64,000 bases of DNA from positions 2,812 to 66,811 of the forward strand of contig VMGE01000006.1 in assembly GCA_007376395.1 (NCBI GenBank), read 5' to 3'. The translations under genes were made by a program, and so were the position numbers. The notes under the pieces were generated by a model. It made no database searches. It was not told the origin of the DNA and worked only from the letters and a program-made list of their open reading frames with translations. Origin of the DNA: Microgenomates group bacterium Gr01-1014_5 (GTDB taxonomy: Bacteria; Patescibacteriota; Microgenomatia; UBA8517; UBA10165). Positions within the stretch are counted from its first letter, which is position 1; every line of letters begins with the position of its first letter. Below are positions 8,119 to 63,247 of this stretch, piece after piece.

Positions 8119-8148
8119 AGAATGGTATAATTGTGCGTACTTTAATAA

Positions 8149-8418
8149 TCCCCTGTAGCTCAGCGGTAGAGCAGGAAACTGTGTTAGCAGCTCTCGATAG
8201 AAATGTCGGGATGAAAAGTGGGTGAATTCAGGGAACGGTCGCCTGAGGCGACTAATCCTGAGCCAAGTCCTGAGAGAAATCGAAGGAAAGGTGCAGAGAC
8301 TAGGTGATTACACCCTCGAGCGCCCACCACCTAAATCCTGAGTAAAACCGAAGGACAAGGTGATGAGATAGTCCAAAAAGTAATTTCAAGGTCGTAGGTT
8401 CGAATCCTACCGGGGGAG
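8149..8418 (+). tRNA. tRNA-Asn(GUU) interrupted by a group I intron. Exons are 8149..8182 and 8381..8418, and the intron lies after anticodon position 35.
   Basis: The spliced sequence UCCCCUGUAGCUCAGCGGUAGAGCAGGAAACUGU|UAAUUUCAAGGUCGUAGGUUCGAAUCCUACCGGGGGAG folds as a cloverleaf. It closely matches bacterial tRNA-Asn, including discriminator G. Confidence 0.7.
8183..8380 (+). ncRNA. group I self-splicing intron, subgroup IC3-like (198 nt)
   Basis: The 5' exon ends in U, forming a U.G pair with the internal guide GCAG at 8187-8190, and the intron ends in G. The internal GGUGCAGAGACUAG...CCCACCUAA and GAGCCAAG strings match conserved P7/P3 regions of the Azoarcus tRNA-Ile and cyanobacterial tRNA IC3 introns. 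Confidence 0.65.
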
Positions 8419-8472
8419 CAATGATATTTTGCAGGAAAAATGAAGATAACCTTCTAATATACAAAAAAATAA

Positions 8473-12237: not shown

Positions 12238-12365
12238 AAAAGCTTTTTCAATGGGTTTAAAGAGAGAATTTAGTTTATTTTAGGCAAAACTCCTTCAAAA
12301 AGTGTATAATGGAGAGAAGAAAGGAGATAAAACTAGGTTTAGTCTATAAATCTATTAAAAATACT

Positions 12366-12566
12366 ATGAACGGAACAATTAAGACCAAAACAGATAAAGG
12401 ATATGGATTCATTTCTCGCGAAGGCGAAGTAAAGGATCTTTTCTTTCACTCAACAGACTTAGTCGGTGTTACTTTTGACGAGCTTCAAGTTGGAGCAGCC
12501 GTTATGTTTGATATTGTAGATGGTGAAAAAGGACCAGCTGCAAAAAATGTAAAACTCGCCGAATAA
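12366..12566 (+). CDS. cspA: cold-shock protein (CspA family)
   Basis: MNGTIKTKTDKGYGFISREGEVKDLFFHSTDL... is a canonical cold-shock domain with RNP1/RNP2. The track ORF starts 19 codons earlier at 12309. Confidence 0.8.
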   Translation: MNGTIKTKTDKGYGFISREGEVKDLFFHSTDLVGVTFDELQVGAAVMFDIVDGEKGPAAKNVKLAE

Positions 12567-12629: not shown

Positions 12630-13040
12630 TTACTCTTCCTTTGTTGGGGATATTTTCTTACTTTTTGGAGATTTAACTTTTTCTGCTACAACTGGAGTAG
12701 AAACAATAACTTCAGAAGTTTTTACTTCCAATAATTTCAATATTTTATCAAGCTTAGCGTTCAATGCTCCAAACTGATCATTATTCTGGGAGACACTTGG
12801 GGCTCTGAAACTAGGCCTTTCCTGCCTTGGAGAATCCGACCTTGCATTGCCCATTCTTTCGAAACAGTTACTGCAATAAACCGGTTTACCGCTTGTTGGC
12901 CTAAAGGGTACTTCACATTCATTTCCACAATTACTGCAAGTGGTTCTAAACATAGGTCGGTCTTCACTCCTAAAATCCCGCCTACCGAAAGAACGCCCAC
13001 CCCCGCCGCTGTTTCTACCACCCCTGTTAAAATTTCCCAT
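12630..13040 (-). CDS. RG-rich zinc-ribbon protein, hypothetical
   Basis: Gly/Arg-rich N-terminus and a C4 zinc ribbon, CSNCGNECEVPF...PVYCSNCF. Confidence 0.45.
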   Translation of the reverse strand: MGNFNRGGRNSGGGGRSFGRRDFRSEDRPMFRTTCSNCGNECEVPFRPTSGKPVYCSNCFERMGNARSDSPRQERPSFRAPSVSQNNDQFGALNAKLDKILKLLEVKTSEVIVSTPVVAEKVKSPKSKKISPTKEE

Positions 13041-13155: not shown

Positions 13156-16100
13156 ATGAAAGCCAGCTGTAAAAAAGTTGTGCTGAAGAGCATAACCAGC
13201 CTGTTTTGTTTTCTTCTTACCTTTTTGGTATTACTTTCTCCGTCTCAAATATCTGCTGCTGAGCGCAGTTCTTACTACGATTGGGGTCCTTATTACAACC
13301 AAACCAAAGTTTTGGGGGTTACTTTCTCTTCTTTGGAAGAATTGCCAAAAATCGAGATCCCGGCAAATATTTCCCCGCCCCCCGCAACCGGAATTCTTCC
13401 AGGCAGTCCTTTCCACTTTTTAGAAACTCTGACGGAAAACGCACAGCTTTCCTTTATTTTTGACCCGGTAAAAAAAGAGGAGTTTCGCCTTACACTCGCC
13501 TCCGAGCGTTTGTCCGAAGCAAAAACTTTAGTTGAGCAGGGAAACTACCAAGCAGCAGAATCTGCTGCCGCAGAGTACAGAAACGCCATGAATATAGTTT
13601 CCGACAATCTGCGCGCACTCTCCGCACAAAACAATCCCCAAGCAGACGCTCTGGCCGAGAATGTAGGAAAACTCTCCGCGGATCACGCTGTCGTGGCGCA
13701 AAGCGCCGCCCTTTCCTCTCCGTCAGCCGCCAATACAACCTGGAACCAACTTTTAACTGCTTCGGAAAAAGCCATGGACTCATCCGCTGAAACAAGCGGC
13801 CAGCCGGCAATTCCCGAAGAATTGTCGGTTAGTCTTCAAGAACTTAAAAACGCCGGCCTCATCACTCCTGAGCAAAGCGATAAACTCTATTCTCTCACCT
13901 CAAGAAGCCAAGTACGCGCAGAAATTGATAAACTTACTGCCGCTGGTACGTTTCCTCAGGCAGAAGCGGCAAAACTCGATACTGCAGTAGCTGTCAACTA
14001 TCCCGATATTTACAACCAAGCGCTATCAGTGCTTAAGTTTGCCGAACTGCGTTCATACCAAACACTGCCTCCGCCCTCAGTTGATATCTTAAAAGAGATT
14101 GAGGAATGGCAAGCGCAAAAAGGTGATTTACCACCACCTGCTGAAATAAAGCCGTACCTTTATCACGCCAGAGCTTCAGAACTTGCTCAAAGTATAGACT
14201 TTGCTCCTTTTTCTGCCGACCAGCAAACAGAAGTAGCTAAATTCTATCCTGAAGCTGTTTCCCAAAACCCAACCTATACTCCTCCTCCTTCACCCTCGCC
14301 TTTGCCAAGCCCTGAGCCGTCCCCCACCCCTACAGAACAAACTGCTCCGGAAACGGCTTCGCCATCAGAACCCACCACGCCGTCTACTCAGCCATATCTT
14401 GCCGATTACAACGGCCCTTTGCCAGGAAGTCCGGCTTACTTTTTCAAACAAATTGGTGAGGGGGCAGGACTGTTTACTGCGGCCTTTGATCCGGCTAGGC
14501 GCATGGAGCTGTCTATGCAATTTGCAGAAGAACGCTTAAAAGAAGCCAATGCGCTTGCACTCGCGACCGGCCGTGAAAAAGACTACCAAAACACACTCGA
14601 AAGATATAAAGATTCTCTAGAAGGTATCACGCAAAATCTTAGGGATTATCAGGGAAGTGAAGAAACAAGAAGAGATTTGGCGGGAAAATTCGAAGCAGAG
14701 GCCGCCCGGCATAACGTTATCTTCGAAAAAGGTTTACTGCCGCCGGTTTCCGAAAACACAGAGGTCATGCCAGCTGTTGTTGCTGTAACCCAAAACGCCA
14801 TGGACGCTTCTGCCGACGCCCTCGACAAACCGGCAATTCCGCTTTCTTTAGTAGCTAGACTCCAAGACTTAAAAGCGCAGGGACAGCTTCTTCCAGAGGA
14901 GGTTGACAATATAGTCCAATCTCAATCGCGTGAAGAAGTACGCGAAAAAATAAGAGAGCTGGTTAAACTCGAGACATTTCCTCCGGCTGATGCTAAAAAG
15001 CTCGATGAGGCACAAGCTATCGTTACACCGCACGACTACAACCAATTAGTTGAGGTCAAAAAGGTTGAGGAGTTACAAAGACTGCGTGCCGCCCAGGCTG
15101 AATTTGCCCAAACCGCAACTCTTCGTCAAACAAACGCCAATTACGAAACCCGTATTGAGTTTTTAACTAAGTCTATTGACCCCTCGCTTATTAAAGCAGA
15201 AGATTTGGCAGGCCGCGAAGGGTTGTTGGCCACCTATCAAGACCTCCTTTCGAAAAGCGGAGAAAGACCTATTAATGCAGGTCAATTTGTCGAGGCAGAA
15301 AAAACTACTTCAGAGGAAAAGAATACCGCCATCCGCCCGGTTGACGCCGTCTTTTCAACCTGTCCTGTAGGGGCAATTTTTAAACAATTCGAAGGTTGCG
15401 TCTGGGAAGCAAACGGCAGCAAAATCAACAACTATGAACAATATAAATGCAGTACCTCAAAAGAATATTGGTCGTTTTCCCAAAACAAATGCGTACTTTA
15501 TACTCCTGGCGCAGAAGCTCGTGATACTCAGCCAGTTTGTCCAATTGGCTATGCCTGGGCTTGGGAGTCGCAAAACTGCCAAGTCTCAAACACTCCCGTG
15601 CCAACGCCGCCTCCCGGAGTATTGCCTATTGGAGACCTTCCTGAGAGCGAAAAAGAAAATTTCTGTCCTGCCGGCGCGTCATATCAGGCAGGGAAAGGCT
15701 GTCTTTGGGATAACAGCCAAAAATCGGTTTACGATCCGGCTCAGTACCGCTGCACCCCGGGAGCTTACTATTCTTTCTCTGAGTTTAAATGCGTAGAAAA
15801 CCCTGATCCAAGCCAACCCTATCCTAAAAACACTCAACCTGCCTGTTCTGAAGGAAGCGCTTGGAGTTGGACTGACGGCCGCTGTCTTGAGGTTCGTTCC
15901 TACACACCCGTTTCAGACGCCGCGTCAAAACTCCAAGTTCCACAACCAAGCTTTGCCGGACCGGACAGTCCGCTTTATGGCTTAAAAAGGGCTTTTGAAG
16001 GAATACAAACCTTTACCGCGTTCACCACGCAAGCCAGACAAGAAGTTAGACTTGCCCACGCCAAAGAACGTTTTGCTGAAGCCTACCAAGAACTTGAAGC

Positions 16101-18420
16101 AAACGACGAAGAGGGTTTCAAAGAATCGTTAAGCCTCTACACGGGCGAGATGCAGCAGGTTTACAACGACTTGGCTTCAGCAAACTTTAACGACGAGGCG
16201 AGAAAACAACTGGGTGAAGCCCTTGAAACCCAAGCTCTTGAACAAAACTTACTTCTACAGAAAGTAAGTGTCTTTGCTTCCGCAGACCTGGCAACGCCAA
16301 TTTCTGCGGCAGTCTCGGTAACCGTCCAGGGTGTCGACCGCGCAGCAGATTTGCAAGGTCAGCCAGCCATACCCGAGGAAATAAAAACTAAAATAGAAGC
16401 CTTACCTGCCGACATGATTTCCGACGAAGACAAACAAAAACTTCTCGCCACTAACAATAGAGTTAAAGCCAGATTGGAAATTAATTCACTAGTCGGCCAA
16501 GGTTTCTTAACCAACCAAGATACGGCACTTTTAGACGAGAGTCTTACCAACTCTGACCCTGCCGGCACGGCTAAACTTGACGAATTAAAAAAGCTGGACG
16601 AAATAGTAGACTTGACAAAACTTACAGGCGAAATAGACAAAACAGTTGAGAAGAATGAAAATATTGCCCAAAAACTGGAAGAATTTAGGCAATCATTCAC
16701 TCCCGGTCAAGAAATACCCGGAGAGATTAGGCCTTACGTCAGGCTAACCAGAATTGAAGAGATAACTCAAACAATCAGGCCCGACATTGTGCGCACAGAA
16801 GATTTTGGCAACCGCCGCGATCTACAGCTTGCCGTGGCAACGCTGAAAGAAGAGTTTAAGCCCACCCGCGAAACCGTAGATCGACTTGAGCAGTACAGAA
16901 GAAATAATCCCGGAAGGCCGCTGCCTTTTGACCTGGCGCGAGCAGAAGCCTTCTCCCGAGGTCTTGGCGTCAGAAACGAAGCAGGACCTTGCTATCTTCC
17001 CTCTCCGCCGTTTGCACCCAACACACCTTGCCCTGCCCCAGGCTCTGCAATACCAATTTTCTCTTACGATAACATCGCTTTTGGCTCATCAGCTTTTGGG
17101 ACAAATACAAACATTACTAACGACGCTCAAGGAAAACCTTTGGTTTATGGCGACGGGCCCAAACCCGTAGAGGCTGGGGTTTGTCCTGACAACTACCATT
17201 GGATGTACGACAATGGCGGTTGGTGTATGAGCAGCTCTGGAAGTTATGGAGGTTCGACAACTTCCTATGGTAGCCCATCGGTAACGACTCCGGGTTACAC
17301 CCCTTACACGTCGTATTACTCTCCCCCAGGCGCGCCGCCTGCCAGCTATGGATACCAAGGCCCAGGAAATTACTCGAACAACTACTACTCAACAACGGGT
17401 TCTCCGTATACCCCACCGACCTATTACGGAACTGCGCCGACAACTTATACCACCAATCCACCCCCGGGAACTGTCCCCGGATCAGGACCAGCGCCTTCCA
17501 CGGGCGGAGAATGTCCCTCTGGCTTTCATTGGATGCCGCCAAGTTATAATCAGGGAGGTTGGTGTATGTCTAACGGGGGTACATACACACCCGGTTATCA
17601 ATATGGAGGTGGAGGAGCACAAGTTAGTCCCGGTACACAATGTCCCAAGGGTACATATTGGAATAGCTACTCTAGTTCATGTCAATCGCCAACCAGCCCC
17701 ACATACCCCGGCGGCTCAGGCAATTGCCCACCCGGACAATATTGGACAGGAAGTTCTACAGGAGGAGGCTCGTGTGTTACTTCCGATACTTGGCCGTCAC
17801 CAAATCTCACAAGAGAAAGTTGTGGGCCAGGGTACTATTGGAGTGGGAATGCGTGTTACCCCAATTATCCGGGTAGTGGCGGTGGCAGTACGAGCTCTTG
17901 TACCTACCCGTCGGGCGGTTGCGGCTCAGGCTATTTTGATTATGGCTCTTGCTCCTGTAAAGCATCTTCATCCCAAGGATGTTATAACGTATCTGCCTCC
18001 AGTTGCCCGAGCGGATGGTATTTTGATTCGGCTGCTTGTACTTGCCGTCAGTCGTCAACATCAACCCCTGGTTCTGGTGGGGGAACTACCTCTGGATCAT
18101 GTCCTTCTGGATCTCATTGGATGAGTGATAATGGTGGCTATTGCATGTCTGATGCTGCTCGAGACGGGTCAACATCAGGAGGCTCCACCACCACTGGTGG
18201 TTCTACCTCAAGTGGTTCTTGTCCTTCAGGGTATCATTGGATGTCTGACAGCGGCGGATGGTGTATGTCAGACAACACAAGCGGGGGTGGAAGCACTTCC
18301 ACCTATACTCCACCCCCTACTACAACCTCGACCGAACCGACTCCGGCTCCAACCACAACAGAGCCTGCTCCAGCTCCTGCACCTACCGAACCTGCTCCCG
18401 CACCAACCACTTCCCCATGA
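13156..18420 (+). CDS. giant secreted/surface protein (1754 aa) with a signal peptide, three tandem ~290-aa repeats, Cys-rich modules and a Gly/Ser/Thr/Tyr low-complexity region
   Basis: Signal peptide ...SPSQISAAE. Three diverged repeats each begin (L)PGSP.Y(F/G) and contain QPAIPEE. Four copies of CP(S/D)G.HWM.D.GGWCMS and related CxxGxYW..C modules follow. C-terminal TEPAPAP tail. Confidence 0.75.
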   Translation: MKASCKKVVLKSITSLFCFLLTFLVLLSPSQISAAERSSYYDWGPYYNQTKVLGVTFSSLEELPKIEIPANISPPPATGILPGSPFHFLETLTENAQLSFIFDPVKKEEFRLTLASERLSEAKTLVEQGNYQAAESAAAEYRNAMNIVSDNLRALSAQNNPQADALAENVGKLSADHAVVAQSAALSSPSAANTTWNQLLTASEKAMDSSAETSGQPAIPEELSVSLQELKNAGLITPEQSDKLYSLTSRSQVRAEIDKLTAAGTFPQAEAAKLDTAVAVNYPDIYNQALSVLKFAELRSYQTLPPPSVDILKEIEEWQAQKGDLPPPAEIKPYLYHARASELAQSIDFAPFSADQQTEVAKFYPEAVSQNPTYTPPPSPSPLPSPEPSPTPTEQTAPETASPSEPTTPSTQPYLADYNGPLPGSPAYFFKQIGEGAGLFTAAFDPARRMELSMQFAEERLKEANALALATGREKDYQNTLERYKDSLEGITQNLRDYQGSEETRRDLAGKFEAEAARHNVIFEKGLLPPVSENTEVMPAVVAVTQNAMDASADALDKPAIPLSLVARLQDLKAQGQLLPEEVDNIVQSQSREEVREKIRELVKLETFPPADAKKLDEAQAIVTPHDYNQLVEVKKVEELQRLRAAQAEFAQTATLRQTNANYETRIEFLTKSIDPSLIKAEDLAGREGLLATYQDLLSKSGERPINAGQFVEAEKTTSEEKNTAIRPVDAVFSTCPVGAIFKQFEGCVWEANGSKINNYEQYKCSTSKEYWSFSQNKCVLYTPGAEARDTQPVCPIGYAWAWESQNCQVSNTPVPTPPPGVLPIGDLPESEKENFCPAGASYQAGKGCLWDNSQKSVYDPAQYRCTPGAYYSFSEFKCVENPDPSQPYPKNTQPACSEGSAWSWTDGRCLEVRSYTPVSDAASKLQVPQPSFAGPDSPLYGLKRAFEGIQTFTAFTTQARQEVRLAHAKERFAEAYQELEANDEEGFKESLSLYTGEMQQVYNDLASANFNDEARKQLGEALETQALEQNLLLQKVSVFASADLATPISAAVSVTVQGVDRAADLQGQPAIPEEIKTKIEALPADMISDEDKQKLLATNNRVKARLEINSLVGQGFLTNQDTALLDESLTNSDPAGTAKLDELKKLDEIVDLTKLTGEIDKTVEKNENIAQKLEEFRQSFTPGQEIPGEIRPYVRLTRIEEITQTIRPDIVRTEDFGNRRDLQLAVATLKEEFKPTRETVDRLEQYRRNNPGRPLPFDLARAEAFSRGLGVRNEAGPCYLPSPPFAPNTPCPAPGSAIPIFSYDNIAFGSSAFGTNTNITNDAQGKPLVYGDGPKPVEAGVCPDNYHWMYDNGGWCMSSSGSYGGSTTSYGSPSVTTPGYTPYTSYYSPPGAPPASYGYQGPGNYSNNYYSTTGSPYTPPTYYGTAPTTYTTNPPPGTVPGSGPAPSTGGECPSGFHWMPPSYNQGGWCMSNGGTYTPGYQYGGGGAQVSPGTQCPKGTYWNSYSSSCQSPTSPTYPGGSGNCPPGQYWTGSSTGGGSCVTSDTWPSPNLTRESCGPGYYWSGNACYPNYPGSGGGSTSSCTYPSGGCGSGYFDYGSCSCKASSSQGCYNVSASSCPSGWYFDSAACTCRQSSTSTPGSGGGTTSGSCPSGSHWMSDNGGYCMSDAARDGSTSGGSTTTGGSTSSGSCPSGYHWMSDSGGWCMSDNTSGGGSTSTYTPPPTTTSTEPTPAPTTTEPAPAPAPTEPAPAPTTSP

Positions 18421-18791
18421 GTAGGATCGCTTCTCTTCGAACAATAACTTTTATCTTCCTAATCTGCGCAATTACGCTCTTCGGAATTCTTCTTTACAGT
18501 TTTCAAAAAGAGTATATAAAAAGACATACTGTTTTATATGACGGAGCACTATTTACTCCGGAATTCGTAGTTATTCATCTGGGCGACCCTGTAATTATTA
18601 AAAATAGTTCCCAAAAACCAATGGAAATTGCCGTAGGAAGGCATGAAAACCATAAAACTCTAAGTGGATTTCAGGAGAAAATTATCAACCCCAAAGAAGA
18701 GTACGCCTTCACTCCTCAGGAAAGAGGGATTTTTGATCTGCATGATCATTTTAATCCTAAAAAATTCGGGTATATTATCATCGACAAATGA
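18417..18791 (+). CDS. small membrane-anchored hypothetical protein, translationally coupled to the giant gene
   Basis: Its ATG overlaps the upstream TGA (ATGA). It has an N-terminal TM segment followed by a ~90-aa soluble domain. Confidence 0.45.
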   Translation: MSRIASLRTITFIFLICAITLFGILLYSFQKEYIKRHTVLYDGALFTPEFVVIHLGDPVIIKNSSQKPMEIAVGRHENHKTLSGFQEKIINPKEEYAFTPQERGIFDLHDHFNPKKFGYIIIDK

Positions 18792-18874: not shown

Positions 18875-19303
18875 ATGTCCTCAAGAAGCACGGAAGTTAT
18901 ATCACCTGAACAGAACGAGCCAATAGATTCTTATTGGACTACTGCCCGCGTTAGGCTTCGTCTCCAAATTAAAGACTTCGAGATAATGACTTGGTCAAAA
19001 CAAATGCGTCTTTTGGAAACAAGGACAAAGGGAGGCGTGTCTGTCTTTCCAGCTTTTCAGTTTGTACAAAGAGCAGGTGTATGGTCTGTGTTAATAGGCC
19101 TGCATGAGGTTCTAAAGCCTTTTAAGGGGGTTGTCGGCCCAGACGAAGGTAATTCCCTAGCTTCTTGGCTTACCACTCCAGAGGAACGACTTGGCGGAAT
19201 AAGTATTATTGATCATTTAAAACAAGACAGAGACCCAAAAAAGGCTATTGCTTTAGCTCAAGAGACCGCTAATCGTTGGCAACAACCAAGCAACAAAATC
19301 TAG
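18875..19303 (+). CDS. possible ParS/MbcA/Xre-type antitoxin (DUF2384-like C-terminal toxin-binding domain), orphan
   Basis: The C-terminal ...SLASWLTTPEERLGGISIIDHLKQDRDPKKAIALAQETANRW fits the DUF2384 pattern (W..tP...LgG..P.d.l...G...v...l). No RES toxin lies downstream. Confidence 0.35.
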   Translation: MSSRSTEVISPEQNEPIDSYWTTARVRLRLQIKDFEIMTWSKQMRLLETRTKGGVSVFPAFQFVQRAGVWSVLIGLHEVLKPFKGVVGPDEGNSLASWLTTPEERLGGISIIDHLKQDRDPKKAIALAQETANRWQQPSNKI

Positions 19304-19438: not shown

Positions 19439-20000
19439 TAAGAGGCCATCTTCAACCACGTCCCTAGATTAGTTTCCCAACCACGCCACCTTAAGGTAAC
19501 AGTTCGGAATACAGGTTTTTGTAATTAGTAGTATACCATGATTCATCTGGGTACACAAATATAATCCGAAACCTTATGCTCAAGAGATATAAAAAGTTAT
19601 AGTTGACAAGTCTAATCTGAGAGATTATTATCAATTTCGATGTTAAATATTACTGTTAGTCGCGACGGGGATATCCATACGGTGAAAATAAACAAGTTTG
19701 TTACTTACGTAATAAACCGTTAATTAAGTTCTTTTTCCTCATATAGATCTTTCCCGAATTTAAACTGCTACTAACTTATTGTGGGTGTCTCTTATCAGCT
19801 GAAGGAGATTAAATCCAGTAATGGTAAGCGTCGGTAACGCGAGGTTGCGTAAAACATTATGGTATGTACCGAGAAACACAGACCATATAACAACCAGCCC
19901 ACAATTAACATCACTTAACGTCTTTCTACTGCAACTTCATGCTCGAATACTACTCCACTCTCGTCAATCGCTAGCCAAAATCCTTCAAAGGGCGAAGATT

Positions 20001-35299: not shown

Positions 35300-36019
35300 A
35301 TGGATATTCTGCCTGCCCAGGAGTTTCCCGAAATTACAAGCCGCTTTAGTCGGAAAAAACTTCTTCTTGTCTTTTTCATTATTATCTTTCTCGTAATCGG
35401 TATTTTTATCGTTGCGCCATTTATTGCCGAACCGACTTCTCCGCCAAAAGAAATTTTTATTACCAATATTACCGACGGACAAGCGACAATAACTTGGTCT
35501 ACAGATAAACCGACAAAAGGAACGGTTAAGATTCAAAAGGATATTTATAAAGACGATGGAGATAAAAACAAAAAAAGCCAGGGGTTTTATGCCACACACC
35601 TTGTAACAATCGGCGCCTTGCGACCTGCCACTTCGTATAATTACGAGATTTATCAAGGCTGGAGAAAAGTTTCTGAGGGTTCGTTTACAACAGCAATTAT
35701 TTTAAACTCAATTAACAACCCCAACCCTGTCTATGGCCGCGTCATTGACTCATCAAACAGACCGCAAGTCGGAGCAATTGTCTATTTGACTGCAAAAAAT
35801 CAAAACGGAGAATCAGCGCTTTACTCGACTTTGACCAACAACGAGGGACGTTGGCAAATAGATCTAGCCAACTTTCGCACCCGTGATCTAAAAGCTCCGT
35901 TTAATTTAAACACTGAGACAGTTCAAGAAGTGGTTGTGCAAACAGGATTCCGCGGCAAGTTTAAAGCCGCGACAGATATGGATAACGATCAACCCTGGCC
36001 GGATATTATTGTAAATTGA
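35300..36019 (+). CDS. membrane-anchored FN3-like domain protein (paralog of 40278..41501)
   Basis: TM anchor, then ITNITDGQATITWSTDKPTKG (fibronectin-III/purple-acid-phosphatase N-terminal-like), YGRVIDSSNRPQVGAIVYL, NNEGRWQIDLANFR, MDNDQPWPDIIV. Confidence 0.5.
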   Translation: MDILPAQEFPEITSRFSRKKLLLVFFIIIFLVIGIFIVAPFIAEPTSPPKEIFITNITDGQATITWSTDKPTKGTVKIQKDIYKDDGDKNKKSQGFYATHLVTIGALRPATSYNYEIYQGWRKVSEGSFTTAIILNSINNPNPVYGRVIDSSNRPQVGAIVYLTAKNQNGESALYSTLTNNEGRWQIDLANFRTRDLKAPFNLNTETVQEVVVQTGFRGKFKAATDMDNDQPWPDIIVN

Positions 36020-36021
36020 TT

Positions 36022-39000
36022 ATGCAAAATTTTTCCAAAAACGTTTTTGTCCAACTTGTAAATTTGCTTCTAATTTTTAATGTTGTTTTTTCTTCTTTAG
36101 CGCCATCCTTAGTCTATGCGCAAAACACAGGAGAGTATGACGGAGGAGGAAATGCCGGAGATGACGGCGGAGGAGACAGTGGAGACGAAGGAGATTCTGG
36201 ATCAGATGAGGGTAACACAGGTGACGGAGGAGACGTAGACAACGGAGCGGCAGATGCCGAAACCGGCAACAGTGGAGTGGAGCAAGAAGGAAATCTCGGC
36301 AGCTCAGGGGACGAGGGCAACACCGGATCTGAAGGAAGCGGAGACGGAGGTAATACTGGTGGCGGTGGTGGTGGAGAAGGAGGAAATGCCGGAGATGAAA
36401 GTGGAAATGCAGACAGCGGCAGCTCAGGGGACAGCGGAGGCGGAGGTAATACCGGAGACAGTAGAACACCAACACCCACTCCTGTCTCAGGGGGAACAGG
36501 AAATACTGGCAGTTATGAGCCGAGGTCATACATTTCAGTAACCTACAGTTGCGGGGGGTGGGCAAACGGATGCTCAAATCGGGCCATGGATTGCCGGGTC
36601 TTCAACGGACAAATTGAATCTTGCGGAGGGTGTTACTGCATGGATGCCTCTGTTAACACCCCACCTTCTCCTTCATCTTCAGCACCTGAGGGAAATACCG
36701 GTGCAGAGCCGACACCTACACCAACTCCACCCACACCCGTGCCAACAATAAACGTTGAGGCAGAAGCACTTACCGCAACTGGCAATACCGGAACAGGGGG
36801 TAATATAGGTATAGAGCCTATCGTTCCGGTTACTTCGGATGAAACACAAAGAGCGGCAATTGCGGCGGCGCTTGCCGCAACACAGGCAACCACAATTGAC
36901 CTTATAAACCGGCAAGTCCGCGAAGCCGGTAGTGGAAACACCGGAATTGACCACACGCTTGCTTCAGTCCCAGATAATGTTGGCAATCTTGGCTCGCAAG
37001 TAGCTTCTGCAATCTTTGACCCTTTGGCAGATTTCCGATTACCAAATATTTTTAGTTCAAACTCAGATTTAACTGAAGCAGAAAGGCAAATTAACGAATT
37101 AGACGCAAGACTCGCTCAAGAGAGAGAAGAATTAAACCGCGACTTTTATAATCCCAATAACCCTTTATCTGCCCTCCGCTTGCTTGTTCCCAACGGAGAA
37201 AATAATAATGACCCCTCTGCTCTTTTTGGCCAATTTACGTCTCAAATGGGGAACGCCGGGGTTCGTGTAGAAGGCAATGTCGGAGAACCTTCTTTTAGTC
37301 TCGCGTGCCTGGACGCCGACTGTTTTCTAAGTAAGCTCGGCTCTACTCATCTCGCAACTCTACCGTTACTAGGAAACGTAACGACTGAGGGAGCAGTAGA
37401 TTTTTTTGCCAGCTCTGCACTGGAACTAAACCGGAAAAGCGCAGAAACCTCAAAAGTTCTTGGTGAAGCAAAAGACTTATATAACCAAGCAGGGGTAAGC
37501 GCGAGAATGCGAGCGTCCCAGCCAAATCCTTGCGACACAGATCCCAGCTCAACACAATGTTTAACTTTTTCAACTTTTTCACAAACTTCACCTAATTTAG
37601 CCTTAGAACTTCAAAGAGATAAAGAGCTATACCCCGACGACACCTTAACACCAGAAGAAGTCGCCGCAAGAAACGCTCTTGAAGCAAAGCTCGACGAAGC
37701 CGCTCAGATGGCTTATGACGGCGCAATAGAAACAGCCGCAATCGTAGCAATGACTTATTTTGGAGGTCCGGCTCTCAATAAAGTGGGTGGGTTCATAAAA
37801 GGCGTAGGTGGAAAACTTGTCGGATCTGCGAGTGATTTCCTACGACCAGCAGGAGGAATATTTGATGATTTAGTAACGGGAGGCCGAAGGGTTTTTGGCA
37901 CAGCAGACGATCTTCCAATGCCGGCACATGCCGTTATGCATTCCGTACAGTCAGTAGATGACTATTATGTACCGCCGTTTGCCAGATCTGTCGACCCCGA
38001 AGAAGCGCGAGAAGCGGGTATGAGAATATTTAACAGCGAGGCGCTTCACGACGACGATTTGTTAAGAGTTTCCCATTGGATCCGCAACGGTCAAGGATTG
38101 CCCGACAATGGCTTAAGCGACGATGTTGTCAATTTTGCAAAAAGAGTTTCTGACGATTTAATGTCTTCTTTCGTACCTGACAATAACGGCGGTTTTAGAC
38201 TATCACCAGTTTCAAAAATAACTGAAGCAAAAAGGGCGGTAATTAACGCTCTTGAGCACGAAGGAAATACTGGGCTAATTGTATATAGTCAACGGGCTAT
38301 TAGCGAAGATGAGTACCGCGAATTAGCCGAGCGCTCATTAGACGCAACCATAAGAAACAGACAAAATCAGGAAAAGTTGAGGGGGGCTGTGGAAGAAGCT
38401 AGAAAAATTGCGACCACGATGAACGACTCGCTTGGGGGTTCGGCAAGCGATATCGCCAGACGACAGACCGACATTGAATCTGCTTACGATTTAAGCAGGT
38501 TTCATTCAGCCTCACTTGAAAGCCGACTGGCAGGAAGTAGCGGCGAGGCAGTAGGTGGATTCTTTATTCCAAGAACCGGCCAAATATCTATAACTGAAGG
38601 AACAGGTCTATCTCCTTTGCCGACAATTGTTCACGAGTGTAGACACACTTGCGATTTTTTATCTAGCCCGCAACATTTTAATGATTTGACGCGTAGATTC
38701 GGGAAGCCAGCGGCAGTGGCACTTAACGAAGGAAGAGTTGCTAGTTTTGAAGTAGATGCATTAAAAATCAGTAAATATAATCAGAGCGCAAGTGACGCGA
38801 GTGCGGCACATACTCAAGCATTCCAACAATATAAACAAATATTTGAGGAAGGTATTGTACCAGAGCTGGCAAAAAGAGAAAACGTAACTATTGACGAGGC
38901 CCGTAAAATCACATACAGGGATCCTTCTGCTCTTGATAAAATAGACGATAAAAAAATCAATGAGATTTTAGACCAATTCGGAATCTCGAGAAATAGTCCT

Positions 39001-40272
39001 CCTGAAAAAGAAACGAATAAATTAATAAAGGTGGGAATTGCAACAGCCGGAACAATAACAGCGGTAATCTCTCTTGCGGCAGGGGCAGATCTTTACTTAA
39101 GCAAAACGGGTACTTCACAAGCCACTACCCCAACACCGGTTCCGACACAGAGGCCTGACTTATTAAATTTATTCAACTTTACTAAGAAGGCGTTCGCTCA
39201 AGAGGAATCTAGCAATTCTATATCCACACAACAGCCTTTTGACCTTGCTGTTAAAAAAGAGCTTGTAAAACACATAATAAACACCACTGGTAAAGTTGGC
39301 TTTGAAGATGTCGCTCAAGTTTTAGAGGCAGATACGCTGGAACCTAGGTTTAACAGAATAAGTGAAGGGTATAAATTTACCACTGGAAGCGCCGGCGTTT
39401 CTTGGGGATTGGTTGACAAAGACTTATACTCTGTTGTTCTTGAAGGAATACCCGGCATCGACATACAAACTCCTTTGATTGTTGATGCCAAAAACAATTC
39501 TACTGTTTTAATCCCAATCTCGATATCTAAAGGGAGCGGAAAGGTCGAATCTAAGCCGCAAGGATCAGAAACTTCCCTAATAAAAACAGCTTATGCGCAA
39601 GAAAACGATAATGCCCTTGCAAACGGCAAAACCAAAGTGCAGGTTTTGCTTTTTCAAGACGAAAATAGGAACGGGAAATTTGACACTAGCGATGCGGTTT
39701 TGCCTTGGGCAAATCTTATCGTTAAGCTTAAAGGTTTAAATAACAAGAAGGATATATTCTTAAATCAAGGTTGGAATCTGTTTACTTTAACAAACCTTCC
39801 TTCCAGTCCTCTTACTGCAAACGAATTGTTGCAAGAAATTGCTAAACAGAACGGTTATGCAACGACGGTTTCTACTTTGGAAAATGGGCTTTGGAAGTCA
39901 TATGTTGTCCGGGGAGATAAAACCTACTCAGGAGAAGACTTCCCTATCGTTCCGGGCAGGGCTTACTTTGTTAAAGCACTAAAACAGTCTGTCTTTACTT
40001 ACCAGGGCCAAGAGTTTGTTGCACCTGTTGATTTAACCCTCAATGAGGGATGGAACGCTGTCGGACTGCCAAAAACTTCTCAGGAATATAAAATTTCAGA
40101 CGTTTTGTCAAAACTGGACTCGTCAGGCGCTGACGCCGCAAGCCGCTGGGAATCAGGTCTTTGGGATAGTTTTGTAACTAAAAACAAAGAAGATTACGGA
40201 GAAAACTTCCCAATTGAAACAAACCGCGGCTACATTATCCGCGTTAGAAAAAATACTGCGTTTACGCCTTAA
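36022..40272 (+). CDS. giant surface protein (about 1416 aa) with an acidic Gly/Asp/Ser-rich N-terminal region, a recurring GNTG motif, an internal HExxH motif and two C-terminal ~90-aa repeats
   Basis: Signal-like N-terminus. Nine or more (E/G)GNTG motifs. IVHECRHTCD (HExxH). An internal TM segment (VGIATAGTITAVISLAAG). The C-terminal repeats are LNQGWNLFTL...FPIVPGRAYFVKA and LNEGWNAVGL...FPIETNRGYIIRV. The track starts at TTG 36016; ATG 36022 is more likely. Confidence 0.7.
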   Translation: MQNFSKNVFVQLVNLLLIFNVVFSSLAPSLVYAQNTGEYDGGGNAGDDGGGDSGDEGDSGSDEGNTGDGGDVDNGAADAETGNSGVEQEGNLGSSGDEGNTGSEGSGDGGNTGGGGGGEGGNAGDESGNADSGSSGDSGGGGNTGDSRTPTPTPVSGGTGNTGSYEPRSYISVTYSCGGWANGCSNRAMDCRVFNGQIESCGGCYCMDASVNTPPSPSSSAPEGNTGAEPTPTPTPPTPVPTINVEAEALTATGNTGTGGNIGIEPIVPVTSDETQRAAIAAALAATQATTIDLINRQVREAGSGNTGIDHTLASVPDNVGNLGSQVASAIFDPLADFRLPNIFSSNSDLTEAERQINELDARLAQEREELNRDFYNPNNPLSALRLLVPNGENNNDPSALFGQFTSQMGNAGVRVEGNVGEPSFSLACLDADCFLSKLGSTHLATLPLLGNVTTEGAVDFFASSALELNRKSAETSKVLGEAKDLYNQAGVSARMRASQPNPCDTDPSSTQCLTFSTFSQTSPNLALELQRDKELYPDDTLTPEEVAARNALEAKLDEAAQMAYDGAIETAAIVAMTYFGGPALNKVGGFIKGVGGKLVGSASDFLRPAGGIFDDLVTGGRRVFGTADDLPMPAHAVMHSVQSVDDYYVPPFARSVDPEEAREAGMRIFNSEALHDDDLLRVSHWIRNGQGLPDNGLSDDVVNFAKRVSDDLMSSFVPDNNGGFRLSPVSKITEAKRAVINALEHEGNTGLIVYSQRAISEDEYRELAERSLDATIRNRQNQEKLRGAVEEARKIATTMNDSLGGSASDIARRQTDIESAYDLSRFHSASLESRLAGSSGEAVGGFFIPRTGQISITEGTGLSPLPTIVHECRHTCDFLSSPQHFNDLTRRFGKPAAVALNEGRVASFEVDALKISKYNQSASDASAAHTQAFQQYKQIFEEGIVPELAKRENVTIDEARKITYRDPSALDKIDDKKINEILDQFGISRNSPPEKETNKLIKVGIATAGTITAVISLAAGADLYLSKTGTSQATTPTPVPTQRPDLLNLFNFTKKAFAQEESSNSISTQQPFDLAVKKELVKHIINTTGKVGFEDVAQVLEADTLEPRFNRISEGYKFTTGSAGVSWGLVDKDLYSVVLEGIPGIDIQTPLIVDAKNNSTVLIPISISKGSGKVESKPQGSETSLIKTAYAQENDNALANGKTKVQVLLFQDENRNGKFDTSDAVLPWANLIVKLKGLNNKKDIFLNQGWNLFTLTNLPSSPLTANELLQEIAKQNGYATTVSTLENGLWKSYVVRGDKTYSGEDFPIVPGRAYFVKALKQSVFTYQGQEFVAPVDLTLNEGWNAVGLPKTSQEYKISDVLSKLDSSGADAASRWESGLWDSFVTKNKEDYGENFPIETNRGYIIRVRKNTAFTP

Positions 40273-62143: not shown

Positions 62144-63112
62144 TTACCTTAAACCGAGGTCGTATTCAAGGTTGCACTTCAAGCAAACATTGCACCCGCC
62201 ATCTTCTGCTCCCCAGACATATTTTTCAAAGCCGCAAGAGGCGCATGCCCGCCGCGTTTTAAATTTATCGATGTTCTGCAAAGTGGCAACTCCGGGAAAA
62301 GTGTCTGATGTCATAAGATTAAGCATTTCTGAATTTAATATGCCGGGACAGTCGCGGAGCTGGTTTATCAAATGTCCTCGGGCAATTATTTCCTGCTCGA
62401 TTTTTGCTCCTACAAAAACCTGCTCATACAAGGTCGAAGCTGATATTATAGCAGTGTGATTATTGCCAGCTATTTCTCGGCCGTCTTTGAGTGCGGCCAT
62501 TTTTTCTGCAGTTAATTGAGCGATAGTTTTTTTAGTTAAAGTTAAGACTAAATCGTTAAAAGTTTTGCCCTCCGGAAGATTAAATTCAACCGGTCTGTCG
62601 TTAAACTCTTCGTCGTCTAGTGAGTTGGGAGCATCGGCAAACGCTTCGTAAACTCTTACACATTGTGTCGGAGAAAGAGGCAGGCATACAGCAACACTTT
62701 GAACTCGTACAATGCCATTTTCTTCATACTTTCGGCTTACAACTACCCGCGACCATTTATAGAAGCCATCGACCCTTGAACTTATCCAGGCGAGACACTC
62801 AGCGTCGCTAAACGCCGCCCAGGAGACGGTTTCCGTGGTTGCTGTGTTTTCATTCTGATAAACGGGGTGATTTGTGCGGTTGGTATCAGTGAGCCGAACT
62901 AATTCCTCGAGCGTTGTCCAATAAATATTTGGCTTTCTTTGAAATTCAAGAATTACAGAAGCTAAATCTTGAGCGATTACTTCTTGAGATTTTTTCCAGT
63001 TTGCGACCGGTAGCGCTAGTTCTACATTCATAGTTTCCTGCTCGGGATGGTAACTGAAGGTTATTAGTTTTCCGGCTTCTCGTCGCTTCTCTCCTCGAAG
63101 TAAACTCCTCAA
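62144..63112 (-). CDS. hypothetical protein with C-terminal C4 zinc finger
   Basis: Contains CASCGFEKYVWGAEDGGCNVCLKC. The probable start is MNVELAL at 63031. Confidence 0.4.
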   Translation of the reverse strand: MRSLLRGEKRREAGKLITFSYHPEQETMNVELALPVANWKKSQEVIAQDLASVILEFQRKPNIYWTTLEELVRLTDTNRTNHPVYQNENTATTETVSWAAFSDAECLAWISSRVDGFYKWSRVVVSRKYEENGIVRVQSVAVCLPLSPTQCVRVYEAFADAPNSLDDEEFNDRPVEFNLPEGKTFNDLVLTLTKKTIAQLTAEKMAALKDGREIAGNNHTAIISASTLYEQVFVGAKIEQEIIARGHLINQLRDCPGILNSEMLNLMTSDTFPGVATLQNIDKFKTRRACASCGFEKYVWGAEDGGCNVCLKCNLEYDLGLR

Positions 63113-63247
63113 ATTTTTGAAGAATTTATATCGAGGGCTTTAGCCCGAGATACGGTTGCGGCACAGCTCCTGAATTGCACAGGATTCCTTAATCCTCCTT
63201 CGCTTAAAGCTACGGAAGGACGTTGCATAACCTTATTCAGTCAATTT

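What the first reader, a model, noticed from the sequence alone, without database searches (positions are those of the whole stretch)
13156..18791. 1754-aa secreted giant protein with triplicated ~290-aa module, novel Cys repeats and a translationally coupled small membrane protein
The protein has three tandem diverged repeats (each LPGSP.YF...QPAIPEE...). A Cys-rich block has CP.G..W.W...C modules. A Gly/Ser/Thr/Tyr-rich region contains four copies of the motif CP(S/D)G.HWM.D.GGWCMS(D). A Pro/Thr/Ala/Glu tail closes it. The downstream 124-aa membrane-anchored gene overlaps by ATGA, suggesting a co-translated partner. This resembles the large surface proteins of episymbiotic CPR bacteria, but the disulfide-loop repeat is one I do not recognise.
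Basis: seen in the sequence. Interest (0 to 1): 0.7.

Follow-up and report, generated by a model that had tools for sequence, protein, structure and literature searches.

The report
Conserved giant secreted protein of Microgenomates
This is a real, conserved 1754-residue secreted protein of an uncultivated ultra-small (CPR, Microgenomates) bacterium, made of three copies of a helical module plus strings of small disulfide-stapled hairpins; it most likely builds part of the cell surface, and nobody has studied it.

Summary
ORF 13156-18420 encodes a 1754-aa protein with a signal-peptide-like N-terminus, three diverged ~290-aa helical modules, 36 paired cysteines, four CPxGxHWM hairpins and a Pro/Thr tail. 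A 124-aa membrane protein gene overlaps its stop by ATGA.

It is not an artefact. The sequence is identical to an NCBI "uncharacterized protein" of Microgenomates group bacterium Gr01-1014_5. About 40 colinear orthologues (45-81% identity) occur in Blackburn-, Davies- and Levybacteria.

Each module begins with Pfam DUF5667, so the helical repeat is catalogued but of unknown function. The Cys hairpins match no Pfam, NCBIfam or PDB entry. They do recur in single-module 800-1000-aa relatives and in other hairpin-array proteins.

AlphaFold2 gives helical bundles and isolated beta-hairpins on disordered linkers, and fold searches are non-specific. The protein evolves about as slowly as ribosomal protein L1. 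In Daviesbacteria it sits between rplA and rplJ, near cell-envelope genes.

Best reading, inferred and not shown: a constitutive extracellular structural or cell-surface protein. The small cupredoxin-like partner is conserved only in the Blackburnbacteria-like subclade. I rate it a new variant of a known kind, of moderate interest.

The parts
13156..18420 (+). Gene for the 1754-aa protein (mature form ~185 kDa, pI 4.7); identical to NCBI G01um10145_749
13156..13257 (+). Signal peptide-like N-terminus (residues 1-34: Lys-rich n-region, hydrophobic core, ISA|AE site)
   Evidence: Read from the sequence. AxA-type sites at the same place in relatives P0051, P0052, P0056 and P0062. No signal-peptide predictor was available.
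13258..13380 (+). Conserved mature N-terminal motif YYDWGPYY...VLG (residues 35-75)
   Evidence: Invariant D42, G44, Y46, Y47, L53, G54. Also present in the single-module relatives.
13381..14280 (+). Helical module A (residues 76-375), starting with DUF5667
14401..15330 (+). Helical module B (residues 416-725), starting with DUF5667
   Evidence: AF2 model: helical bundle, pLDDT 80-94 for residues 411-620.
15343..15900 (+). Mid Cys block (residues 730-915): 2 x 3 disulfide-type beta-hairpins (CPxGxxF/Y...C, CxxxxYWSFxxxKC, CPxGYxWxWxxxxC)
   Evidence: Duplication E 2e-15. Hairpins at pLDDT 70-87. Cys invariant or nearly invariant.
15943..16965 (+). Helical module C (residues 930-1270), starting with DUF5667; the module most like the one in single-module relatives
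16978..18285 (+). C-terminal Gly/Ser/Thr/Tyr/Pro-rich region (residues 1275-1710) carrying 12 Cys mini-modules on disordered linkers
17182..17226 (+). HWM hairpin 1 (C1343-C1357); the most conserved region of the family
17512..17565 (+). HWM hairpin 2 (C1453-C1470)
18100..18144 (+). HWM hairpin 3 (C1649-C1663)
18220..18264 (+). HWM hairpin 4 (C1689-C1703)
18286..18417 (+). Pro/Thr/Ala/Glu tail (residues 1711-1754); no LPXTG motif, no C-terminal TM segment; contains a 27-nt x 3.3 diverged tandem repeat
18417..18791 (+). 124-aa gene overlapping by ATGA: N-terminal TM anchor plus cupredoxin-like ectodomain with conserved HxxH and HDH motifs

Best explanation
The gene encodes a Sec-secreted, acidic, ~185-kDa modular protein. 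It is most likely a constitutive structural component of the Microgenomates cell surface or extracellular envelope.

**Shown.**
- Three ~290-aa all-alpha modules, each beginning with a DUF5667 helical bundle.
- Eighteen Cys mini-modules.
- AlphaFold2 models these mini-modules as short two-stranded beta-hairpins separated by disordered Gly/Ser/Thr/Tyr/Pro-rich linkers.
- A Pro/Thr tail.
- Colinear conservation across about 40 orthologues.
- Descent by internal triplication from an 800-1000-aa single-module ancestor type.

**Inferred.**
- The signal peptide is cleaved.
- Each Cys pair forms a disulfide that staples its hairpin outside the cell.
- The helical modules form the folded body.
- The hairpin and linker region forms an extended, possibly glycosylated, tether or brush that binds a conserved envelope partner.

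In the window's subclade a membrane-anchored cupredoxin-like His-motif protein is made from the same mRNA by stop/start overlap. It probably acts with, or on, the giant protein at the membrane surface.
For: **N-terminus.** The signal-peptide-like N-terminus has an AxA site conserved in position among relatives.

**Cysteines.** There are 36 mature Cys, strictly paired and conserved. An even Cys count is seen in 36 of 39 orthologues. This is expected for extracytoplasmic disulfides.

**Structure.** AF2 gives a helical bundle at pLDDT 80-94 and hairpins at 70-90, with linkers below 50.

**No catalytic domain.** Pfam, NCBIfam and PDB give no catalytic-domain hit.

**Distribution.** About 40 full-length orthologues were found, in 27 species-representative genomes of Levy-, Davies- and Blackburnbacteria. 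One genome (binchicken_co144_799) gave hits on two contigs (L010, a fragment, and L033); every other genome gave one.

**Rate of change.** Between two Daviesbacteria the protein is 62% identical over 1801 aligned residues. Ribosomal protein L1 is 65%, GT4 64% and WecG 67% in the same pair. That is a housekeeping-like rate.

**Synteny.** Ten Daviesbacteria-type loci share this neighbourhood (9 carry the upstream rplK/rplA-dockerin side, 7 the downstream rplJ side). The gene lies between rplA and rplJ, directly after a dockerin-repeat secreted protein. PBP1, WecG/GT4 glycosyltransferases, MreB, a PEGA protein and a sortase lie nearby.

**Origin.** Single-module relatives share the N-terminal motif, the module, the hairpin array and the tail.
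Against: - No experimental or expression data exist.
- No recognised wall-anchoring device is present: no SLH, LPXTG or lipobox.
- Classical S-layer proteins are usually Cys-poor (general knowledge).
- In the window itself the neighbours are unrelated housekeeping genes.
- Disulfide formation is inferred, because model coordinates could not be inspected.
- Signal-peptide cleavage was not predicted with a dedicated tool.
Confidence: 0.5

Rival explanations
1. It is a host-attachment adhesin. The long modular protein projects from the episymbiont cell, and its Cys hairpins and Tyr-rich linkers bind a host-cell surface ligand.
For: Large secreted modular proteins are typical of CPR episymbionts (general knowledge). 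Aromatic-rich hairpins (W, Y, H) are plausible carbohydrate or protein binding sites. The copy number of the 4-Cys unit varies from 0 to 6 among orthologues.
Against: The most conserved parts are the HWM hairpins themselves (majority fraction 0.78-0.83). Overall divergence equals that of ribosomal protein L1 and glycosyltransferases. The gene is essentially single-copy and colinear across several candidate phyla-level lineages. Host-specific adhesins usually diversify quickly and occur as paralogous families.
Confidence: 0.25
2. It is the substrate of an oxidative cross-linking system. The translationally coupled cupredoxin-like HxxH/HDH membrane protein binds copper and oxidises the Cys- and Tyr-rich C-terminal region (disulfide or dityrosine formation). 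This turns the giant protein into an insoluble wall matrix, as in spore coats, eggshell membranes or plant extensins.
For: The ATGA overlap has no Shine-Dalgarno sequence before the small gene. The partner is conserved at the same overlapping position in L004, L022 and L033. Cupredoxin-like proteins with the same His motifs flank the gene in L006 (twice) and L016. The C-terminal region is 8.9% Tyr and 5.5% Cys, with conserved YGY/YY motifs. The His motifs align, though not significantly, with the HxH...HCH copper ligand region of nitrite reductase.
Against: The partner is missing next to the gene in most Davies- and Levybacteria loci. The Pfam Cupredoxin_1 score is below threshold (20.5 vs 27 bits). 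There is no Cys ligand for type-1 copper. The PDB alignment has E 0.47. No biochemical data exist.
Confidence: 0.1
3. It is a secreted toxin or effector, for example an alpha-helical pore former delivered to a host or competitor, with the hairpin region serving as the targeting part.
For: Foldseek lists alpha-pore-forming toxin components (AhlB, SmhB, MakB) among the weak hits.
Confidence: 0.05
4. It is an assembly or annotation artefact: collapsed repeats or a spurious long ORF.
For: The protein is repetitive, and the gene's GC content (0.48-0.50) is higher than its flanks (about 0.40-0.43).
Against: About 40 independent assemblies from NCBI, ENA, JGI and Logan give colinear proteins of 1725-1942 aa. 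Internal DNA repeats are only 63-83% identical. The ORF is intact, with conserved invariant residues throughout.
Confidence: 0.01

Closest known systems
Pfam DUF5667 (PF18915) domain proteins
   Same: Each of the three modules begins with a DUF5667 match (131.8 bits in total, 3 stretches). AF2 models this part as an up-down helical bundle. Single-module relatives carry one DUF5667.
   Different: DUF5667 covers only ~90 of the ~290 residues of each module. It has no assigned function, and no paper in the searched library mentions it. The triplication and the fusion to Cys-hairpin arrays are specific to this family.
Single-module 800-1000-aa relatives (P0051, P0052, P0055, P0056, P0062; unnamed metagenomic proteins)
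   Same: They share the signal peptide, the YYDW N-terminal motif, one DUF5667-led helical module, a Cys-hairpin array including HW-type long hairpins, and a Pro-rich tail. P0051 aligns with the N-terminus plus module A (E 3e-44) and with module C plus the C-terminal array (E 1e-46).
   Different: They have one module instead of three and no mid Cys block. Identity to the window protein is only 27-31%.
Eukaryotic small disulfide-rich repeats (EGF-like, furin-like/VSP, TNFR Cys-rich repeats; cysteine-rich eggshell membrane protein)
   Same: Short Cys-delimited beta-hairpin units with a CxxG(Y/F)x(W/Y) core are strung in tandem in an extracellular protein. The top Foldseek hits for the C-terminal model, though not significant, are CREMP, IGFBP, TNFR2 and megalin.
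   Different: There is no Pfam match at E <= 1 and no PDB sequence match at E <= 10. Units here have 2 or 4 Cys, not 6. The Foldseek E-values are 4-9, so the resemblance is an analogy of design, not demonstrated homology.
Gram-positive wall-associated surface proteins with Pro/Thr-rich wall-spanning segments
   Same: It has an N-terminal Sec signal, a long modular extracellular body and a C-terminal Pro/Thr-rich low-complexity segment.
   Different: There is no LPXTG sorting signal, no C-terminal hydrophobic segment or charged tail, and no SLH, LysM or CWB domain.
Cupredoxin_1 (PF13473) / cupredoxin-fold copper proteins (for the 124-aa partner)
   Same: It matches the whole length of the Cupredoxin_1 profile (positions 6-103 of 104, E 5e-4). 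Several close homologues carry precomputed PF13473 hits. HxxH and HDH motifs are conserved.
   Different: The score is below Pfam's threshold (20.5 vs 27 bits). The ectodomain has no Cys, so it lacks a type-1 copper site. Metal binding is untested.

Membership tests
Pfam DUF5667 (PF18915) | HMM match above the gathering score | tested here: met
   131.8 bits against a cut-off of 27, in three stretches; best stretch residues 79-167
Unnamed Microgenomates ~1750-aa family (orthologues P0002-P0040) | Full-length colinear homology: signal peptide, YYDW motif, three modules, mid Cys block, C-terminal hairpin array, Pro/Thr tail | tested here: met
   45-81% identity over 88-100% of the query in 38 of the 40 non-self hits (49% and 57% coverage for the two shortest, P0039 and P0041). 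A 39-sequence alignment has invariant residues in every region.
EGF-like / furin-like / TNFR cysteine-rich repeats | Match to the corresponding Pfam models and the 6-Cys (EGF) or CxxC-containing (furin-like) pattern | tested here: not met
   No Pfam hit at E <= 1 for the window protein, nor at E <= 0.1 for canonical hairpin arrays in relatives. Units have 2 or 4 Cys.
Sortase-anchored (LPXTG) surface proteins | C-terminal LPXTG motif followed by a hydrophobic segment and a basic tail | tested here: not met
   The C-terminus is ...TEPAPAPTTSP. All complete orthologues end in Pro/Thr/Ser/Ala-rich sequence with no motif or TM segment.
S-layer proteins with SLH or other known anchoring domains | SLH or an equivalent wall-binding domain; lattice-forming abundant protein | tested here: not met
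   No SLH or other wall-binding Pfam domain was found. Abundance and lattice formation cannot be tested with these tools.
Bacterial lipoproteins | Lipobox [LVI][ASTVI][GAS]C at the end of the signal peptide | tested here: not met
   The only signal-region Cys residues are C5 and C18 (context SLFC), which do not fit a lipobox. The c-region is SQISA|AE.
Cupredoxin_1 (PF13473) for the 124-aa partner | HMM match above the gathering score | tested here: not met
   20.5 bits against 27, E 5e-4, covering profile positions 6-103 of 104. Four close homologues have precomputed PF13473 hits. The fold assignment is therefore likely, but formal membership is not met for this sequence.
Type-1 (blue) copper proteins for the 124-aa partner | His, Cys, His, Met copper ligand set | tested here: not met
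   The ectodomain has no Cys; the motif is HDH where multicopper proteins have HCH.
Translationally coupled two-gene unit (giant + small partner) as a family trait | The partner gene is conserved immediately downstream across the family | tested here: not met
   It is present and overlapping in the window, L004, L022 and L033. Remote cupredoxin-like neighbours occur in L006 and L016. It is absent in the other complete loci, including all Daviesbacteria-type loci.

The most novel reading that the evidence does not exclude
Microgenomates build part of their cell surface from a Cys- and Tyr-rich giant protein. This protein is oxidatively cross-linked outside the cell. In some lineages the cross-linking is done by the translationally coupled, membrane-anchored cupredoxin-like HxxH/HDH copper protein. 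That would be a bacterial counterpart of extensin, spore-coat or eggshell-type matrices, and a previously undescribed envelope layer in CPR bacteria.
Probability: 0.08. Interest if true: 0.8.

Novelty: new variant of a known kind. Interest (0 to 1): 0.45.

Why it matters
CPR/Patescibacteria make up a large share of bacterial diversity, yet almost nothing is known about what their cell surface is made of or how they contact other cells.

This protein is one of the largest conserved gene products of several Microgenomates lineages. It changes as slowly as ribosomal and cell-wall enzymes. In Daviesbacteria it is embedded in the rplKA-rplJL ribosomal-protein cluster.

If it is a major envelope component, it gives a concrete target for metaproteomics, antibodies, cryo-ET labelling and lineage-specific cell capture. 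It also defines an uncatalogued bacterial disulfide-hairpin repeat that could be added to the domain databases.

If instead it proves to be a minor surface protein, the finding is of only local interest.

Tried and rejected
1. **Synthetic hairpin query.** I searched a concatenation of HWM hairpins against the 5.8-billion-protein collection. The word index gave only 14 candidates and one fragment (P0042), and did not even recover the source protein. This search says nothing about distribution. The exhaustive HMM search was used instead.
2. **AFDB Foldseek.** The library was not available.
4. **Fold search of the C-terminal model.** Mean pLDDT was 55 and nothing had E < 4.
5. **PDB sequence searches.** Profile searches with the full-length and C-terminal profiles found nothing meaningful.
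6. **Literature.** Searches for DUF5667, PF18915 and CPR + cysteine-rich/giant/S-layer found no paper on this family.
7. **Synteny in the window.** None of the Daviesbacteria neighbour genes is present in the 64-kb window.
8. **Assembly artefact.** Considered and rejected.
9. **Pore-forming toxin.** Considered and rejected because the structural hits have negligible probability.
Full report
**Observation**

The window carries an intact ORF at 13156-18420 (+) of 1754 codons. It starts at the first ATG after an in-frame stop. A second ORF starts at 18417, so its ATG shares TGA with the stop of the first gene (ATGA). No Shine-Dalgarno-like sequence precedes it.

- LPGSP at residues 81 and 422. 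Module C has GPDSPLYG instead.
- PAIP at residues 217, 559 and 1070.
- Four CPxxxHWM...GG(W/Y)CMS units at 1343, 1453, 1649 and 1689.
- A Pro/Thr/Ala/Glu tail at 1711-1754.

**Internal repeats**

Pairwise BLASTP of the three helical segments gives E 7e-33 (A/B, 34% identity over 226 aa), 3e-18 (A/C) and 1e-20 (B/C). An HMM built from module B of orthologues finds A (3e-48) and C (2e-28), and nothing else in the six-frame translation of the window. The mid Cys block is itself a duplication: 736-808 vs 837-910, E 2e-15.

The mature protein has 36 Cys. All are in pairs 12-17 residues apart, or in two CX6-8CX9-10CXC units. At the DNA level the repeats are only 63-83% identical. The only tandem repeat is a diverged 27-nt x 3.3 array in the tail. 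Repeat collapse is therefore not an issue.

**Identity and distribution**

The protein is 100% identical to "Uncharacterized protein G01um10145_749" of Microgenomates group bacterium Gr01-1014_5, a member of the Patescibacteria/CPR. The same search returned 40 further proteins. 38 of these cover 88-100% of the query; almost all are 1500-1950 aa long and 44-81% identical. They come from independent NCBI, ENA, JGI and Logan assemblies. Those with names are Blackburnbacteria and Daviesbacteria.

A pattern scan of GTDB species representatives found 27 loci, in Levybacteria, Daviesbacteria, Blackburnbacteria and unnamed MAGs. Each genome gave one hit, except binchicken_co144_799, which gave hits on two contigs (L010, a 2.5-kb fragment, and L033).

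In a 39-sequence alignment nearly all Cys are invariant or at least 90% conserved. The best-conserved stretches are the C1279-C1292 hairpin and HWM hairpins 1 and 2 (majority fraction 0.78-0.83). The number of 4-Cys units varies from 0 to 6. Of the 39 orthologues, 36 have an even number of mature Cys.

**Domains**

Pfam recognises only DUF5667 (PF18915), three times, at the start of each module (131.8 bits). NCBIfam recognises nothing. The Cys units have no Pfam match, even in relatives that carry long canonical arrays. PDB sequence searches with the full-length and C-terminal profiles are empty or non-significant. No paper in the searchable library mentions DUF5667 or PF18915. Searches combining CPR or Microgenomates terms with cysteine-rich, giant or S-layer terms found nothing on this family.

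**Structure**

I made an AlphaFold2 model of residues 411-930 with 29 aligned sequences.
- It gives a confident helical bundle, pLDDT 80-94 over about the first 210 residues.
- Helices are less confident to residue ~700.
- Six two-stranded beta-hairpins follow, each bracketed by a Cys pair, at pLDDT 70-87.

A model of residues 1270-1720 gives short hairpins (pLDDT 70-90) at every Cys unit, with linkers below 50. That is, beads on a flexible string.

Fold searches were not informative:
- Foldseek against the PDB finds nothing below E 4 for the second model. Its top, non-significant hits are eukaryotic Cys-rich modular proteins such as CREMP, IGFBP and TNFR2.
- The AFDB library was unavailable.

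**Wider family**

I ran an exhaustive HMM search of 1.84 billion representatives with the C-terminal profile. It found only 56 proteins at E <= 1e-3 and 11 at E <= 1e-30. At least one of the weak hits (P0067, a eukaryote-like low-complexity repeat protein) is spurious.

Besides family members, it recovered 800-1000-aa proteins: P0051, P0052, P0055, P0056 and P0062. These have the same signal peptide, the YYDW motif, one DUF5667-led module, a Cys-hairpin array with HW-type long hairpins, and a Pro-rich tail. P0051 aligns with the N-terminus plus module A (E 3e-44) and with module C plus the C-terminal array (E 1e-46). The giant protein is therefore an internally triplicated derivative of this single-module type.

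Other architectures carry only the hairpins:
- P0050 and P0054 have about 15 4-Cys units, then an Ig-like domain and a C-terminal TM segment.
- P0066 and P0068 have arrays of CPSGQYWNGTxC.

The repeat is thus uncatalogued but not unique to this gene.

**Genomic context**

The context is not uniform.

Ten Daviesbacteria-type loci share one neighbourhood (9 carry the upstream side, 7 the downstream side). The order is PBP1, ASCH, secE, nusG, rplK, rplA, an LPG_synthase_TM protein and a dockerin-repeat secreted protein. Then comes the giant gene, followed by rplJ, rplL, MerR, a cupin, WecG, GT4, MreB, a PEGA protein and a sortase. That places it inside a ribosomal-protein cluster and next to envelope genes.

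In the window none of these neighbours is present. The flanks are a cold-shock protein, a CxxC zinc-ribbon protein, a GNAT and others.

Between two Daviesbacteria the giant protein is 62% identical over 1801 aligned residues. That is similar to L1 (65%), GT4 (64%) and WecG (67%) in the same genome pair. This is a housekeeping-like rate.

**The small partner**

The 124-aa product has an N-terminal TM helix. Its ectodomain matches Cupredoxin_1 over the whole profile but below threshold (E 5e-4, 20.5 vs 27 bits). Close homologues do carry PF13473 hits.

A homologue overlaps the giant gene's stop in L004 (48% identity, E 2e-44), L022 (73%) and L033 (45%). Larger proteins starting with the same domain flank the gene in L006 (both sides) and L016. 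The remaining complete loci lack it.

HxxH and HDH motifs are conserved across these proteins. They align, not significantly (E 0.47), with the copper-ligand region of nitrite reductase, where the motif is HCH. The coupling is therefore real, but it is a trait of a subclade.

**Interpretation**

What is shown:
- A real, conserved, secretion-signal-bearing, non-enzymatic modular protein.
- Helical DUF5667-led modules and conserved paired Cys mini-modules.

What is inferred:
- The signal peptide is cleaved.
- Disulfides form outside the cell.
- The protein has an extended architecture.
- It plays a constitutive structural or cell-surface role.

The structural role is favoured by the slow divergence, the essentially single-copy colinearity and the Daviesbacteria synteny. 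Against it are the lack of any known wall anchor, the Cys-richness (unusual for S-layers) and the absence of expression data.

The rivals are a host adhesin (0.25), a cross-linked matrix made with the cupredoxin-like partner (0.1), a toxin (0.05) and an artefact (0.01).

**Novelty and score**

The gene is already deposited as a hypothetical protein, and its helical repeat is a catalogued DUF. The Cys-hairpin repeat family, the triplicated architecture and the clade-specific coupling to a cupredoxin-like protein are undescribed.

I rate it a new variant of a known kind (large secreted modular surface proteins). Interest is 0.45: useful to CPR cell biologists, but with no surprising mechanism demonstrated.

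Noticed in passing
window 8146-8421 (+): The Rfam group I intron (8176-8390, 80 bits) lies inside a tRNA gene that ARAGORN missed. The 5' half runs to ~8182 and the 3' half starts at ~8381. Removing 8183-8380 yields a tRNA-Asn(GTT) call, but other boundaries give other identities, so the identity is tentative.
   Followed up: partly
window 19450-19517 (-): A DUF3800-IX RNA motif match (43.9 bits, gathering score 36.8) lies ~150 nt downstream of ORF 18875-19303, close to the finding.
   Followed up: no
window 63050-63242 (-): A marginal cobalamin riboswitch match: 32.6 bits against a gathering score of 31.5.
   Followed up: no
window 36016-40272 (+): A second very large ORF (1418 aa, TTG start) has no Pfam or NCBIfam match. 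It is not related to the DUF5667 module.
   Followed up: partly
L001 3358-14575; L003 12-16594 (also L018, L020, L026-L029, L031, L032): In Daviesbacteria the normally contiguous rplK-rplA-rplJ-rplL cluster is interrupted between rplA and rplJ. The insert holds an LPG_synthase_TM gene, a dockerin-repeat secreted protein and the 5.3-kb giant gene. In L003 it also holds Wzy_C and a 649-aa trypsin-like protease.
   Followed up: partly
L003 19590-21517 (runs off the locus): A 5984-aa predicted protein with MerR, NYN, Hint/intein and Peptidase_S74 hits lies a few kb downstream of the Daviesbacteria orthologue.
   Followed up: no
L005 9602-10967; L007 10369-11752: Thioredoxin reductase and thioredoxin genes lie directly downstream, on the opposite strand, of the giant gene in two related loci. 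BrnT/BrnA toxin-antitoxin genes lie directly upstream.
   Followed up: no
window 12630-13040 (-) and 12309-12566 (+): Immediately upstream are a Gly/Arg-rich protein with a CxxC-x17-CxxC treble-clef zinc finger (TIGR04272, PF23477) and a cold-shock protein. They have no evident link to the giant gene.
   Followed up: no
window 13156-18420 vs flanks: The giant gene is more GC-rich (0.48-0.50) than its surroundings (about 0.40-0.43). This is probably a result of its Gly/Pro/Ala/Ser-rich composition and not foreign origin.
   Followed up: no
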